Shown here in pieces: positions 9,001 to 18,000 of a DNA stretch of 27,723 nt (its first letter is position 1; every line of letters starts with the position of its first letter). Origin of the DNA: Archangium sp. (GTDB lineage: Bacteria > Myxococcota > Myxococcia > Myxococcales > Myxococcaceae); the NCBI GenBank assembly GCA_031367385.1, contig JANLPS010000260.1, positions 1-27,723 on the forward strand. The letters run 5' to 3'. Made by a program: the position numbers.

Positions 9001-12000
9001 GCGCGGTTCATCTTTTCCTGGCCGGCACGCGAGCACTCCGCGGAGGCTAGCGTTTGAGTGAGCCGGCGATGTCGAAGCCGTCGTCGTGCGCCTCGACTCG
9101 AGTCACCTGAAGCCGTGCGCGAAGCTTCGGAGAAGCCGGGTGCTCGAACTTGAGCTCCATGTCAGCGCCCACCACCGGTTGCATGTGCGCGTGAAAGAGG
9201 AGCCCCGCGAGCGACACATTGCGCACGTCGCCGCTGAACTCGACTCCACTCTCGAGGTCGATCACCGAGACGTTGGTGTTGCTGGCTTGCCGCTTCGTCT
9301 GGCGCTGTTCATGAGTGGGCATTCTGAAATGCTACAGGCCGCAACAGGCAGGTCAAAAAAAGTGGCACCGGCCGTGGCATCATCATCGGCATGATCACCT
9401 TCTCCCATGTGGGCATCGCGGTCTCGAAGGGCTCGCCGCTGCGTGCGCTGCTGGGCCTGCTCGAGGTGCCCACGCACGACACCACGGTGCCCCGCGAGAG
9501 CCTGGCGGTCACGATGGTGCCACTTGGTGCGCGATCGGCGCGGTTGGAGCTGCTCGAGACCGAGAACCCCGATTCGACCGTGGGCCGGTTCTTGGCTCGC
9601 CACGGGCCGGGCATTCACCATGTGTGTCTGGGTGTGCCGCACGGGGCGCTCGATGCGATCTGCGAGCGGCTTCGGGCGAACGGCTATCGGCTCCTGCTCG
9701 AGAAGAACGAGCTTGGTGCCGAGGGGGCCTTCGTGAATTTCGTGCACCCCAAGTCAACCGGGGGCGTGCTGCTCGAGCTCCAGGAGCAGTCGCGCGATGG
9801 CGAGCCGTGAGCGGCCGGCATAGTCCATCACGTTGCCCAGCCCGAGCTGTTCGGCCACGAGCTGGTACGCGGCGGTGCCGATGGTCATGCCGACCTTGGC
9901 GCGAAACGCGAGGGCCTCGGTCAGCCAGCCCCTGCTCACCGCGAGCTGTCGGAGCGGCACTTTTTCGTGCGTGCCATCGAAATGAATCGCCGGGTCGAGC
10001 CGCAGCGCCGCGCGAATGACCGCGGGAGACCAAAACACGGGGTGCACCGCGACGCCGTAGCGCCAGGCGTAAAACGGGCTGAGCTCTCCGGTCCAGATCG
10101 TGCGGGCGATGAGCGCGGCGGTCGATGAGACGCCGACGGCTTGCATGTAGGCGTCGTGGCGCAGCATGCCGCCGAATAAGAGATCTGCGCCGTAGCCGGT
10201 GACCACTCCGGTGCCGGCGTGTCGCACCAGGGCCGCGAGCTGAAGCACGATCTCGGCGGTCATGCCGTCGGAGATCTCATTGGCTTTGATCACGTCGTTC
10301 CACAGCTTGAGAATTTCGTCGTCGCGCAGCTGCAGCTCGCGGTGATCACTGCCCAGCGAGCGGGCCAGGTCGGCTGCCTGGGCGAATTCATTGCCCACGC
10401 GGGTGCCCAGGCTCCAGGTGCTGAGCTTCACTGGAAATTTTCGGCCCAGCAGCGCGGAGGCGATCGACGAGTCGATGCCTCCTGAGATGAAGGCACCGCG
10501 GGTCGCATCGGCGCCGTCGAGGGAGTGCTCGAGTGCGTCTCCGAGCTCGCGGGTGTCGGTGGAGGTACCCGTCGTTGCCAAGAGCTCGGGCCAGATCGAG
10601 GGCATTTCTTCGTGAAGAACCCCGGCGTGGTCGATGGAGAGGGTGGCCCCGGGTGAGAGGCGCTCGACGTTCTCGTAGGGGGAATACGTGAGGCTTCGCT
10701 CGCCGGCCGCAGTGAGGCTCGCCGCCGGTTTCAAACGAGGTTGAAAACCGGCGATGGCGGCGAAGGCTTTCACTTCGGGGGAGACCGCGATGAAGCCTGG
10801 GCCGTTGATCTGCCACAGAGGGAGCGTGCCGAGGGCGTCAGTGGTGAAGCGCGTCGCCGCGGGGAGCAGGTCGACTCGGCCATGAGCAGAGCAGGCGGAG
10901 CGAGCGAACGAGGTTTCGAGGGTCGTTGGCTTGGTGAAGCGTGCCAGCGGCGTGTGGTAGAGCGTGCCGGTCTTGGTGACGGTAGTGCCGTACGGGCAGA
11001 GTCTCTTGGCGAGCTCGACTTCATCGACCTCCGCCCTGCCCTGAACCCAGAGAAATGGCATCGGCTAGCGCTCCGTGAGCTTGGGCTTGAGCACTTTGCC
11101 CAGCGGGCTCTTCGGCAGCGACTCCCGAAAGTGCCAGTGCCTGGGTATTTTGAAGTCGGCCAGTTGCTCTCGCAGTACGGGCATCGCCGATTTCTTCAAC
11201 GCCGCGTCATCGAGGCCAGTCGGGCCGCGGTCGGGCACCAGGTACGCCGCCACGCACTCTCCGGTGAGCTCATCGGCTGCACCGATCACCGCGCATTCTT
11301 TGACCCACGGCAGGTTTCGCAAGGCCGTCTCGACCTCAGCTGGGTTCACCTTCTGCCCTGCGACGTTGATGAATTGATTCATTCGGCCGGTGATGAAGAA
11401 TCGACCCGCTTCATCGAGCGACACCAGGTCACCCGTTCGCAGCTCATGGTTCGCGAAGGGCGCTGCATCGACCGCTCCGTCGATGAGGTAGCCACTGCAG
11501 AGGGCCTCCGATGAAACCACCAGCTCTGCGTTGTCGAGCCGCCATCGAATGGGCGCCATCGGCTTGCCGACCGTCTCGAAAAGATACGGAGGTGCGCCAT
11601 GCTGGTGAATGCAGATCACACCAATTTCGGCCAGCCCGTACCCTTGTTGGAGTGGGCGACCGAAGCGCTCGAGAAACCCTTCGGCCACCGTTCGCGAGAG
11701 GGCCGCGCTGCCGCAAAACGGGCGCGACAACGCCGACAGGTCGTACTTTTCGGGGTGTTGCAATCGGTTACACACCGCGAAGAACGAAGGCACCGAGCTG
11801 AAAAAAGAGATTCGAGACTCGGTCAGCACGTTGAGCACGCTCATCGGCGTCGCAGCCTGGGGCGGCATCAGCCACAGCGTGCCTCCACCCAGCAGCGTGG
11901 GAAAAGCGAGACAATCGAGGCCATGCGAGTGCGTGAGCGGCACGGCACAGAGGGTGCGCTCATCGTCGGTGAGCGTCACGGCTCGTTGAATGTGCTGCGC

Positions 12001-15000: not shown

Positions 15001-18000
15001 CTCGAGTGCCGACCAAGACCCCTCACCCATCGAGAGGACCGATCACCTTCTCGAAGTGCGGCACGTTGGCCCTGGCCGAGAACGATTGCACGTGGGCCTC
15101 GGCGGCGGGCTCTCGAATCGCGTCGAGCTGCGCGATGAAGCGCGCGTTGTGAATGTGCTTGGTCAATGAAAACGGAGTCGCGTGAAACCCGGCGAAGCGT
15201 TTGGCCTGCTTCAATGCCGTCGCGAAGACCTCGTTGTCGACTTGATCGACCAGCCCGAAGTCTTTGGCGCTCTCGGCATCGAAGCTGGCGCACCCCACCA
15301 CTGCGTGCATCATGCGCGCTCGCCCCAGCAGCACTTCGAGCATCAGCGACCCGAGTGGGCAGGCAACGCCGTTCTGCAATTCGGGCATCGCGACCACCGT
15401 GCCCCCACTGGCGACCCGCCAATCGGCGCACAACGCGACTTGCAGGCCCTGGCCTATCGCGTGGTGATCGATCGCCGCGACGACCGGTTTGTCGATGCGC
15501 AAGATCGCGATGTACAGATCGATGATCTCGAGCAAGTAGGCCCGCATCTCGCTGTGGGTCTTGAGTGCGGCGATGTCGCGAAAATCTCCGCCGACGCTGA
15601 AAGATCGATCTGCACCGCCCCACAGCACCACGGCCTTGACCGCCGCGTCGGCATTGAGCTCGGGCGCGAGCGTGATCAACCGCTGGGTCATCGCCCGCGA
15701 GAACGGGTTCTTCGGGTTCTCATGGCTCAGACGAAGCTCGCAGATGCCGTCTTCGACCCGAGCCTGAATACTGCCGTCACCCATCGTCGTGCCCCCGGGC
15801 AAAAAAGCCCTGCGAACGGTAGTCAAAGATCGACCGGCCGGGGTTGATTTTTCGGGTGGAACACGCGGGTCGCGGGCAGAGTCTGAGCGCCCCCAATGCT
15901 CCTGCTCCTCACTCTCCTCGCCGCGAACCCTCCCCCTATGCAAACTCGAAGCATCACCGTCAGTGGCAGTGCTCAGGTCCGCGTCGCTCCCGACATCGTG
16001 CAGCTGTTGATGGCCGTTGAGACCGCTGACAAGTCGTTGAGCAAAGCCAAGAGCTCGAATGACGACCGTATGACCAAGGTGCTCGCCGCGGCGAAGAAGT
16101 TCGGCGTCGAGCCCAAAGATCTCCAGACCGACCGAATCACCATCGAGGCCCGGCGCGACAGCAGCTACTCTTCGAACCCCTCGCAAGAGCCCGACGCTTA
16201 CGTGGTTCGCCGTGCGTTGGTGGTGACCTTGCATGATCTCAAGCGCTTCGAAGACCTGCTCTCAGTGCTGCTCGAGGCCGGCGCGAACCGCACCGATGGC
16301 ATTGAATTTCAGACCTCGGCGCTCCGCAAATATCGCGATCAGGCGCGGGTCGAGGCGATGAAGGCCGCCTTCGAAAAAGCGACCGCGCTGTCCAAAGAAG
16401 CGGGGCTCAAGGTGGGCAAAGCGCAGAGCATCTCCGAGGGCAGCTCCGGGTTCGGCATGTGGAGCGCCGCTCCGAGGTACGGCGGAGGCATGCAGCAGAA
16501 CTCGTTTCAGGCCCCAAGCCCGGGCGGTGAGGGCCAAGAGGGCTCGGCCGGGTTCGCGCCGGGCCAGATGCTGGTCAACGCGAGCGTGTCGATCACCTAT
16601 GACCTCGAATAGATGACCCATGTCGAGGCGCTGCACCGCGTGCGGCCGGGCACCATCTGACCCCGCGGCACGCCATGATTTTTGCGAGTATTGCGCCGCG
16701 CCGCTCGAGGTGATCGGCGGGCCTTCGCTCGTCAGCCTGGTCTGTGACCGCTGCGGTGCCACCTTCGAAGCCCCCGCTGACCTCGCCACGGTTCTGCCCG
16801 ACGTGCCAGAGCTTCGGCCCTATTCCCACTCGATGGTGGCCGGCGGCTTCGACGAGATGTCGTACACCACGCGGTTGATGCCCCGCACCTCGTTGGTGAT
16901 GCGGCTCGAGATCTTGCCCAGCACGTCGTAGGGCAAGCGCGCCCAATCGGCGGTCATGCCGTCGACCGAAGTCACCGCGCGAATCGCACAGGTGCACTCA
17001 TAGGTTCGCTCGTCGCCCATCACGCCCACGCTCTGCACCGGCAGCAGCACCGCAAAGGCCTGCCACAGCTCCCGGTACAGGCCTGCGCTGCGAATCTCCT
17101 CGTTGACGATCGCCTCGGCCCTGCGCAACAACGTGAGTCGGGCCTCGGTGATGTCGCTGATCACCCGAATCGCCAACCCCGGCCCGGGGAAAGGCTGGCG
17201 GCTGACCATCTCGTCGGGCAGCCCGAGCTCACGGCCGAGCACGCGAACCTCGTCTTTGAAGAGCTCACGCAACGGCTCGAGCAGCTTCAGGTTCATCTTC
17301 TCGGGCAAGCCGCCGACGTTGTGGTGGCTCTTGATCATCGCCGAAGGGCCCTTGGTCGAGACCGATTCGATCACATCGGGGTAGAGCGTGCCCTGGGCGA
17401 GAAACTTGGCGTCGGTGAAGGTGCGCGCGGCCTCTTCGAAGACCAGAACGAACTCGTTGCCGATGATCTTGCGCTTCTTTTCGGGGTCGCTGACGCCGGC
17501 CAGCTTTTCGAGAAACCGGGCCCGCGCGTCGATGGTCTTGAGCGGCACGTGAAAGCGGCCGGTGAAGAGCGCCTCGACCTGCGCTCGCTCGCCTTCACGC
17601 AGCAGCCCGTTGTCGACGAAGATGCACTGCAGGCGTTCGCCGATGGCGCGGTGAATGAGCAACGCGGCGACCGAGCTGTCGACTCCGCCAGAGAGGCCGC
17701 AGATCACCCGGCCACCCTCGCCGACCTTGGCGCGAATCTCGTTGATCGCCTCTTCGATGTAGCCCTTCATCGTCCAGTCGCCGGTGACGCGGCAGTCATT
17801 GAACAAGAACGACTGGAGCATCTCGCGGCCGTTGACGGTGTGTACGACCTCGGGGTGAAACTGGAGCCCGTAGATGGGCTTGTGCTCGTGCGCGGCGGCG
17901 GCCAGCGGCGCGTTCGACGAGCGACCGATGGCGACGAAGCCCTCGGGCAGGCGCTCGACGCGATCGCCATGGCTCATCCACACCTTGAGCGGAGTGCCCT

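What a model noticed while it worked through the whole genome (the two positions that open the first line are those of the whole stretch)
9391..15784. Myxobacterial CarB/CarA beta-lactam operon with built-in crotonyl-CoA carboxylase (C6-alkyl carbapenam route)
A six-gene operon encodes carboxymethylproline synthase (CarB), ACP, a hexapeptide acyltransferase, crotonyl-CoA carboxylase/reductase (Ccr), an acyl-CoA ligase and carbapenam synthetase (CarA), with a convergent methylmalonyl-CoA epimerase. We think it makes a C6-ethyl or longer-alkyl carbapenam by feeding Ccr-made alkylmalonyl-CoA to a CarB that naturally has Tyr at the W79 position. That would be a natural, radical-SAM-free route to C6-alkylated carbapenem cores, so far shown only as an engineered cascade, and a ready biocatalyst set.
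Evidence so far: g05173 hits only ThnE (5o34, E 1e-49) and CarB (2a7k, E 4e-46) in PDB at E under 1e-25. In that alignment W79 reads Y and M108 reads Q, while the catalytic Glu and H229 are kept. g05168 best matches CarA (1q15, E 9e-34), far above Asn synthetases, with the SGGxDSS, GYGxDLLFGG and WTGE motifs. g05170 passes the NCBIfam Ccr model and is 45% identical to R. sphaeroides Ccr. PMC6542682 (passages, call 21) reports CarB W79F/A/Y/S variants turning over ethylmalonyl-CoA and a coupled Ccr/CMPS route, and cites epimerase use. All seven genes are syntenic in G242 (60-85%). A Sericytochromatia locus keeps CarB-ACP-acyltransferase-ligase-CarA with a carboxyltransferase and two Rieske oxygenases in place [...]
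(Added by a program. Inside this text positions count along the whole contig: contig position 1 is position 1 of the stretch shown here. "Call 12" and the like, gene names such as g00115 and contig names such as C1 are that model's own, and its searches are not shown. The text may have been shortened before it was handed on; [...] marks where a part breaks off. The agent that wrote the report below was given it as the finding of a first reader that could run no searches.)

Follow-up and report, generated by a model that had tools for sequence, protein, structure and literature searches.

The report
Natural C6-alkyl carbapenam assembly operon
This six-gene operon pairs relatives of the two carbapenem ring-building enzymes with a carboxylase that carries large-pocket residues, so it likely builds a beta-lactam core whose side chain, probably longer than ethyl, is installed from the start, a route so far reported only with engineered enzymes.

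Summary
The operon is real, translationally coupled and syntenic in a congener (62-85% identity). CarB and CarA keep their catalytic residues; the CarA model matches carbapenam synthetase best (Z 34.9).

The Ccr naturally carries Pro/Ala/Gly at the three sites engineered to open Ccr for large substrates (48 of 50 in its clade; 66 of 70 nearest outsiders are Cys/Ile/Phe). Three related clusters have a carboxyltransferase instead of Ccr. One has an internally deleted ccr, and its CarB has Trp back at W79. So the chain is probably longer than ethyl.

Two labels need correcting. The 'acyl-CoA ligase' shares the His-x-x-Asp pocket motif of the beta-lactone synthetase CysF and of ligases in other CarB/CarA clusters, so it likely activates a pathway intermediate for the ACP. 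The 'acyltransferase' is a degenerate GlmU-like protein with no His at the usual catalytic position.

Four relatives carry CarC, but none was found in this genome, so its product likely stops at a carbapenam. No chemistry was tested. An earlier scan note covers the same family.

The parts
15023..15784 (-). CarB/ThnE-type carboxymethylproline synthase, 253 aa; Tyr83 at W79, Gln112 at M108, Glu135 and His231 kept
14791..15030 (-). Stand-alone acyl carrier protein, 79 aa, with LDS attachment motif
   Evidence: PF00550; best NCBIfam match cispentacin AmcB, below cut-off
13613..14794 (-). GlmU-like protein, 393 aa: degenerate nucleotidyltransferase-like N-terminal part plus left-handed beta-helix; role open
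12489..13616 (-). Enoyl-CoA carboxylase/reductase, 375 aa; CO2-site N50/Y128/E129/H318; large-pocket P102/A125/G319
11065..12492 (-). Adenylating (ANL) enzyme, 475 aa, with H190-G-x-D193 pocket motif shared with CysF and with ligases of other CarB/CarA clusters
9754..11061 (-). Short CarA-type beta-lactam synthetase, 435 aa; Y290/E326/K389 match CarA Y345/E380/K443; Leu317 at CarA Q371
9391..9810 (+). Methylmalonyl-CoA epimerase-like gene, convergent, overlapping the CarA 3' end by 57 nt; a second epimerase-like copy lies on contig C124

Best explanation
The operon likely makes a C6-alkyl carbapenam-3-carboxylate whose side chain is probably longer than ethyl, and likely tethers it to the ACP for a further, unknown transfer. 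Inferred steps: (1) Ccr reductively carboxylates a medium-chain or branched 2-enoyl-CoA from host metabolism to (2S)-alkylmalonyl-CoA, and the epimerase may return racemised (2R) material. (2) CarB (Tyr79/Gln108) decarboxylates it and adds it to pyrroline-5-carboxylate, plausibly supplied via host ProA, giving (6R)-alkyl-t-CMP. (3) The short CarA closes the beta-lactam. (4) The CysF/AttG-like adenylating enzyme activates the remaining carboxylate onto the ACP. (5) The GlmU-like protein may pass the acyl group to an unknown acceptor. Relatives add a CarC-like oxygenase, P450s, Rieske enzymes or a desaturase; no CarC was found in this genome, so here the core likely stays at the carbapenam level. 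Shown: genes, residues, fold, co-occurrence. Not shown: any reaction, the chain length or the final product.
For: CarB and CarA are the top PDB matches with catalytic residues kept; Y290 is in 34 of 36, and E326 and K389 in 36 of 36, short-type CarA proteins examined. [quoted passage not shown] The triad is PAG in 48 of the 50 top hits and CIF in 66 of the next 70. 17 of 18 genomic ccr loci examined are CIF with no hit to CarA, CarB, ACP, LbH or ligase within 1.5 kb; the one PAG locus is the G001 cluster. The four CO2-site residues are kept, and Tyr at F170 is tolerated. CarB is the only recognisable malonyl-thioester consumer in the Ccr-type clusters. Ccr lies in the cluster in 6 loci (window, L105, L081, L088, L095, L097); a divergent carboxyltransferase (35-37% identical to each other) lies beside 3 others (L091-L093), which parallels the MccB route (PMC5187497 passages). 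Tyr is at 79 in 11 of 13 family CarBs. The two Trp rows nest inside the Tyr clade. One of them, L001, keeps only what look like the first and last codons of ccr between its LbH and ligase genes, with no Ccr found in its genome. Ccr/CarB coupling gives (6R) products and CarA accepts (6R)- but not (6S)-6-ethyl-t-CMP (PMC6542682). The ligase motif H-G/A-x-D/E is in 13 of 13 CarB-linked ligases and 0 of 4 other G000 ligases, and the ligase is fused to a carrier domain ahead of a PKS in L082 and L084.
Against: Chains longer than ethyl were shown only with W79A, not W79Y, and W79Y is missing from the paper's variant table, so a Tyr79 pocket may cap the chain. PKS-type loci L082 and L084 have Tyr79 without Ccr or carboxyltransferase, and L089 (Tyr79) has no Ccr or ligase after LbH, although its contig is cut at CarA. 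The Trp/ccr-loss link is a single event, in a locus that also has a frameshift in its ligase gene. No acyl-CoA dehydrogenase or P5C-forming gene lies in the operon, and no proline dehydrogenase was found in G000. The window ligase alone scores higher against feruloyl-CoA synthetase (E 6e-46) than CysF (E 8e-32). The C5 (5S) carbapenam is described as antibiotically inert (PMC9407657 passage), so the purpose of the window's version is unexplained.
Confidence: 0.5

Rival explanations
1. The ligase and ACP act upstream: the ligase loads a fatty, enoic or (alkyl)malonic acid on the ACP, Ccr and CarB work on ACP-bound thioesters, and the LbH protein shuttles acyl groups between CoA and ACP. The product is still a C6-alkyl carbapenam.
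For: CarB, ACP and LbH are neighbours in every Ccr- and carboxyltransferase-type locus where all three were seen (L092 has a P450 between CarB and ACP). Ligase plus carboxylase pairs supply extender units in reveromycin and stambomycin (PMC5187497). IcuL-type CCRs are proposed to act on ACP-bound substrates (bioRxiv 2022.11.22.517467). A desaturase (L095) and a fatty-acid hydroxylase (L081) lie in or beside relatives.
Against: The ligase pocket motif is polar and is shared with clusters that have Trp79 and no carboxylase hit (L006, L136). The Ccr is of the canonical TIGR01751 type, whereas IcuL is only 18% identical to CinF.
Confidence: 0.2
2. The chain is just ethyl or methyl: Ccr works on crotonyl- or acryloyl-CoA, as in the engineered cascade.
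For: Tyr79 was reported only with ethylmalonyl-CoA. An epimerase of the methylmalonyl type is linked in the window, G001 and L088.
Against: The clade has PAG where its nearest crotonyl-type relatives have CIF; this change is not needed for crotonyl-CoA. The epimerase link may be inherited from a ccr-epimerase-mutase module (9 of 17 CIF loci have an epimerase hit within 1.5 kb).
Confidence: 0.1
3. The CysF-like ligase itself closes a strained ring (the beta-lactam of 6-alkyl-CMP, or a beta-lactone on a hydroxylated side chain), and the short CarA forms a different amide or acts on a tethered substrate.
For: Window H190/D193 align with CysF H192/D195, and H192 is the proposed base for beta-lactone closure. 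The CysF substrate, an alpha-alkyl-beta-hetero acid, resembles 6-alkyl-CMP (inference). The short CarA family has Leu for CarA Q371 in 36 of 36 proteins and is about 60 aa shorter.
Against: CarA keeps Y345/E380/K443/R374/W377 equivalents and the full fold, 416 residues aligned. Fusion of the ligase to a carrier domain (L082, L084) fits thioester formation rather than ring closure.
Confidence: 0.1
4. CarB uses plain malonyl-CoA. The Ccr product is used elsewhere, for example transferred by the LbH protein as an acyl decoration on an unsubstituted carbapenam.
For: Tyr79 occurs without a carboxylase in PKS-type loci. An LbH fold is typical of acyltransferases.
Against: Loss of ccr in L001 coincides with return to Trp79 while the LbH gene is kept. 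The LbH protein lacks the usual catalytic His.
Confidence: 0.1

Closest known systems
car cluster (CarA/CarB/CarC) of Pectobacterium carotovorum, simple carbapenem; PDB 2a7k, 1q15/1q19, 1nx4
   Same: CMPS plus carbapenam synthetase core with catalytic residues kept. Relatives L001, L081, L088 and L095 also carry a CarC-like gene (L095: E 2e-36 to 1nx4).
   Different: Tyr79/Gln108 CarB, CarA about 60-70 aa shorter with Leu at Q371, added Ccr, ACP, ligase and LbH genes; no CarC or proline dehydrogenase found in this genome.
Thienamycin/asparenomycin route (ThnE, ThnM, B12 radical SAM ThnK/TokK)
   Same: Same first two steps; products carry a C6 alkyl chain.
   Different: There the 1-3 carbon chain is added late by sequential radical SAM methylation (PMC9407657 passages). 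Here no radical SAM gene is in the operon and the chain would enter at the CarB step.
Engineered Ccr/CMPS/CarA and MatB/CMPS cascades (Hamed et al., PMC6542682)
   Same: The same three enzyme types and a W79 aromatic substitution.
   Different: Natural, co-encoded and with a PAG-type Ccr; Gln at 108 is not among the variants listed in that paper.
CysF beta-lactone synthetase (PDB 8RA0; PMC11427300) and the ligase of the Rhodococcus fascians pFiD188 CarB/CarA/TauD/ligase/ArgJ locus (att locus; gene names recalled)
   Same: H-x-x-D pocket motif; the adenylating gene sits with CarB/CarA/TauD-type genes in L006, L135 and L136.
   Different: Only 24-33% identity to those ligases; paired here with a stand-alone ACP; no ArgJ and no cystargolide-type genes.
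Extender-unit cassettes RevS/RevT and SamR0482/MccB (PMC5187497)
   Same: A ligase next to either a CCR or a carboxyltransferase, as interchangeable alkylmalonyl suppliers.
   Different: No PKS consumes the unit in the Ccr and carboxyltransferase types; the likely consumer is a crotonase.

Membership tests
Carboxymethylproline synthase (CarB/ThnE) | Crotonase with CarB/ThnE as closest solved relatives; Glu131 and His229 kept | tested here: met
   E135 and H231 invariant in 15 of 15 rows
Carboxymethylproline synthase (CarB/ThnE) | Forms t-CMP from a malonyl thioester and P5C | not testable with these tools
   needs an enzyme assay
Carbapenam/beta-lactam synthetase (CarA) | AsnB-like two-domain fold, PP-loop, Y345/E380 dyad and K443 (roles recalled) | tested here: met
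   Z 34.9, rmsd 3.3, 416 aligned to 1q19 vs Z 26.9 to AsnB; residues
Carbapenam/beta-lactam synthetase (CarA) | ATP-dependent beta-lactam closure | not testable with these tools
   needs an assay; Q371 is Leu in 36 of 36
Enoyl-CoA carboxylase/reductase (Ccr) | TIGR01751 above cut-off; CO2-site Asn/Phe(Tyr)/Glu/His | tested here: met
Crotonyl-type (CIF) Ccr | Cys/Ile/Phe small-pocket triad | tested here: not met
   P102/A125/G319
Simple carbapenem cluster (carABC) | CarC-type epimerase/desaturase present | tested here: not met
   No tblastn hit in G000 for seven CarC-like queries; the single TauD-family gene, on C438, was not hit by them. The genome is 98% complete in 562 contigs, so absence is not proven.
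Complex carbapenem cluster (thn) | B12 radical SAM enzymes in the cluster | tested here: not met
   None among the operon and flanking genes scanned; one query gave only a weak genomic hit on another contig
GlmU-type/hexapeptide acyltransferase | LbH fold | tested here: met
GlmU-type/hexapeptide acyltransferase | Catalytic His (GlmU H363, recalled) and N-terminal Gly-rich nucleotide loop | tested here: inconclusive
   No His aligns there in the HMM alignments; the only invariant His is H215 in the first coil; the loop is absent. The alignments are weak and model pLDDT is about 50 in that region.
CysF/BelH beta-lactone synthetase | His192 (proposed base) and following Asp | tested here: met
   H190/D193
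CysF/BelH beta-lactone synthetase | Overall closeness to CysF and beta-lactone formation | tested here: inconclusive
   CysF is the best single-domain hit of the family profile, but that profile includes the CysF-like L006 row; the window protein alone ranks CysF below other ligases
Methylmalonyl-CoA epimerase | TIGR03081 above cut-off | tested here: not met
   90.7 vs 114.95; the L088 cluster copy passes, 123.9

The most novel reading that the evidence does not exclude
An uncharacterised family of environmental beta-lactam clusters builds lipid-like C6-alkyl carbapenams and carbapenems by choosing the chain before ring formation. It swaps three modules around one Tyr79 CarB, short CarA and CysF-like ligase core: a large-pocket Ccr, a divergent carboxyltransferase, or a PKS-sulfotransferase module. 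It then hands the ACP-tethered beta-lactam on, giving natural carbapenem scaffolds with chains beyond the known 1-3 carbons.
Probability: 0.3. Interest if true: 0.85.

Novelty: new variant of a known kind. Interest (0 to 1): 0.66.

Why it matters
The C6 chains of the characterised natural carbapenems are 1-3 carbons and are added late by B12 radical SAM enzymes. Early installation through alkylmalonyl-CoA has been reported only with engineered CarB variants. A natural set, in which CarB, CarA and Ccr appear to have co-adapted, would supply enzymes for stereocontrolled C6-substituted beta-lactams. It would also point to unseen beta-lactam chemistry in uncultured bacteria. It makes two questions directly testable: what Tyr79/Gln108 does in a natural CMPS, and what the ligases that accompany many CarB/CarA clusters activate.

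Tried and rejected
1. The CxxCxxC..C zinc motif of this Ccr looked special but is in 120 of 120 close Ccrs, including CIF types; rejected as a cluster feature.
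2. A PKS-CarA 'fusion' (P0034) has a long low-complexity stretch where the sulfotransferase should be and looks like a frameshift artefact; not used.
3. The class A beta-lactamase about 4 kb away was considered as self-resistance. It had no hit in 24 loci examined and was not found with this query in G001, which is 87% complete; not supported.
4. The LbH family is not cluster-specific: 53 of 401 phylum genomes match, often with 2-4 copies and unrelated neighbours.
5. A MatB-like reading of the ligase could not be tested by direct alignment, because MatB was not among the alignments shown.
6. The genome-contig scan covered only 2 of 64 parts and was diluted by asparagine synthetases; 1 of 80 loci (L001) was in the family.
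7. The Rieske homologue on G000 C11 has unrelated neighbours.
8. The promoter/terminator scan gave counts at chance level.
9. Sequencing runs: six DNA holders in two sediment studies, one possibly the source; no RNA holder listed. Read-level support for the assembly was not obtained.
10. Complex prediction (ligase with ACP) was not available, so binding is untested.
11. The first CarB tree had one mis-framed row and was replaced.
12. Ten literature searches listed no paper on this cluster type, judged from titles and abstract openings. The library lacks most subscription papers.

Full report
Observation. The six minus-strand genes and the convergent epimerase are present as described. Starts and stops overlap or nearly touch, and the ligase most likely starts at 12492. 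GC3 of the seven genes (0.77-0.86) is close to that of flanking genes (0.80-0.88), and G001 has the same order at 62-85% identity between the same guaA/SIMPL neighbours. The cluster is rare. A CarA-family profile matched 3 of 151 close genomes and 4 of 401 phylum genomes. Two of those, G029 and G271, hold a different, thienamycin-like arrangement.

Core enzymes. The crotonase hits ThnE and CarB far above other crotonases and keeps Glu131 and His229, with Tyr at W79 and Gln at M108. The CarA homologue folds confidently (pLDDT 92) and matches carbapenam synthetase best: Z 34.9, rmsd 3.3, 416 residues aligned, against Z 30.4 for beta-lactam synthetase and 26.9 for AsnB. The shorter length therefore does not remove a domain. 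The equivalents of Y345, E380, K443 and R374 are kept in 34, 36, 36 and 36 of 36 short-type proteins examined, while Q371 is Leu in all 36. The catalytic roles of these residues are recalled, not from a call.

The Ccr. It passes TIGR01751 and keeps the four CO2-site residues described in PMC6628652 (passages). PMC8360864 (passage) names a Caulobacter Ccr variant C146P/I169A/F373G made to accept large substrates. Through the 4gi2 alignment (C130, I153, F358; same spacing within one residue) these sites are P102, A125 and G319 in the window. As a control, the 120 listed hits were aligned. The top 50 are PAG in 48 cases; the next 70 are CIF in 66. Of 18 genomic ccr loci examined (20 fetched, minus the window's own and one unpublished), 17 are CIF and 9 of those have an epimerase hit within 1.5 kb; the examples annotated also have mutase genes. 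I infer that the cluster recruited ccr, probably with the epimerase, from an ethylmalonyl-CoA-type module and reshaped the pocket. That argues for a substrate larger than crotonyl-CoA.

The family. The metagenome scan confirmed 21 loci of 124 candidate stretches; several are fragments. Type I has Ccr (window, L105, L081, L088, L095, L097). Three of these have a CarC-like gene after the ligase (L081, L088, L095), L088 adds a same-strand epimerase, and L095 adds a P450, a desaturase and an ABC exporter. Type II has no Ccr, a divergent carboxyltransferase of unknown direction, and Rieske-type genes (L091-L093). Type III has the ligase fused to a carrier domain next to a KS-(AT)-KR-ACP-sulfotransferase PKS with no thioesterase detected (L082, L084/L085, fragment L090). 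Family CarBs have Gln108 in 13 of 13 and Tyr79 in 11 of 13, and form one clade (95/96). The two Trp rows nest among type I rows, although the enclosing forks are only 84-94% supported. L001 has CarA-CarB-ACP-LbH-ligase-CarC. Between its LbH and ligase genes lie about 60 bases that align with the start and the end of ccr in relatives, and no Ccr was found in its genome, an incomplete MAG. Loss of the alkylmalonyl supply together with a return to Trp79 is what a Ccr-to-CarB route predicts. It is a single event. Against this, type III loci and L089 have Tyr79 with no carboxylase seen.

The ligase. Its pocket motif H-[STAC]-H-G-x-[DE] and C-G-S-A are conserved across all three types. H190/D193 align with H192/D195 of PDB 8RA0, which is CysF, a beta-lactone synthetase with H192 as the proposed base (PMC11427300 passages). 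The motif is also in ligases beside CarB/CarA/TauD genes in Micromonospora (L006), Streptomyces decoyicus (L135) and R. fascians pFiD188 (L136). In all it is present in 13 of 13 CarB-linked ligases and 0 of 4 other G000 ligases; those 4 fall on one side of a 99% SH-aLRT branch. The outgroup is small and long branches meet in that tree. Because the ligase persists where there is no alkyl supply, I infer that its substrate is a shared intermediate rather than the variable chain. The carrier fusion in type III favours thioester formation. The window protein alone scores best against feruloyl-CoA synthetase, so this remains a motif-level argument.

The hexapeptide protein. Its model (pLDDT 72.7) resembles nucleotidyltransferases and ST0452/GlmU weakly (TM about 0.3). 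It lacks the Gly-rich loop and has no His at the GlmU catalytic position. Stand-alone paralogues are common in other families of the phylum. 'Acyltransferase' is a guess.

What this genome lacks. Seven CarC-like queries gave no hit in G000, one query gave none in G001, and no proline dehydrogenase was found, although ProA is present. PMC9407657 (passages) describes the CarB/CarA carbapenam as inert until C5 is inverted. The window's version may therefore be a reduced form, or its product may not be an antibiotic.

Literature seen. PMC6542682: parts 1-3 of 4 of the text and two supplement searches. It supports (2S)-alkylmalonyl to (6R) products and CarA's (6R) preference, but chains beyond ethyl used W79A. 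Passages only: PMC8360864, PMC6628652, PMC5187497, PMC9407657, PMC11427300, PMC7002392 (only a mention of attG and a reference title). bioRxiv 2022.11.22.517467: parts 2-3 of 5; its supplements were not seen. Ten searches listed no paper on this cluster type. One earlier scan note on another genome (e1-9882231) gives the same reading; it is not independent evidence.

Verdict. A real operon of an undescribed cluster family: a new variant of carbapenem-type biosynthesis. Early C6 alkylation of some kind is likely, about 0.8 across the best reading and the first two rivals. The specific order with a chain above ethyl and ACP tethering afterwards is about 0.5. Interest 0.66.

Noticed in passing
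window 4056 to about 4970 (-): Class A beta-lactamase (NF033103 288 vs cut-off 200; best named families PAD/PME/BKC below their cut-offs), about 4 kb from the operon; not found beside related clusters or, with this query, in G001.
   Followed up: partly
L106:5022-11556 (G029 C6) and L133:4847-11664 (G271 C6): Two same-family genomes hold a compact thienamycin-like set: full-length CarA divergent from CarB (Trp79 in L106), then aldehyde-dehydrogenase-like, AMP-binding and one B12 radical SAM gene, with an ATP-grasp gene nearby; no CarC found with one query.
   Followed up: partly
L082:3-11257, L084:313-21082, L090: CarB(Tyr79), ligase-carrier fusion, KS-(AT)-KR-ACP-sulfotransferase PKS without a detected thioesterase, and short CarA; L084 continues into a three-module NRPS. 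Possibly sulfated, polyketide-extended beta-lactams.
   Followed up: partly
L006:8610-14690: Micromonospora noduli locus with CarB, CarA, CarC-like, ligase and ArgJ genes like the R. fascians pFiD188 locus; its ligase pocket region reads very like CysF (8RA0).
   Followed up: partly
L135:6783-18322: Streptomyces decoyicus plasmid cluster with TauD, CarA-like, CarB-like, ligase, further adenylation/NRPS genes, ACPs and chorismate-pathway genes; its CarB has Thr near W79.
   Followed up: no
L109-L131: The degenerate GlmU-like LbH family occurs as stand-alone genes, often 2-4 per genome, in several families of the phylum (53 of 401 genomes); function unknown.
   Followed up: partly
window 12489-13616, residues H51 and K164: Clade-specific polar residues where CIF-type Ccrs mostly have Gly and Thr (His at 51 in 44 of 50; Lys at 164 in at least 48 of 50). 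They might bind a polar or acidic chain end.
   Followed up: no
P0060, P0063: Proteins with a CarA-like domain followed by a crotonase domain, apparently CarA-CarB fusions.
   Followed up: no
L134:7970-9723: Bradyrhizobium plasmid with two divergent CarB-like crotonase genes and no CarA hit nearby.
   Followed up: no
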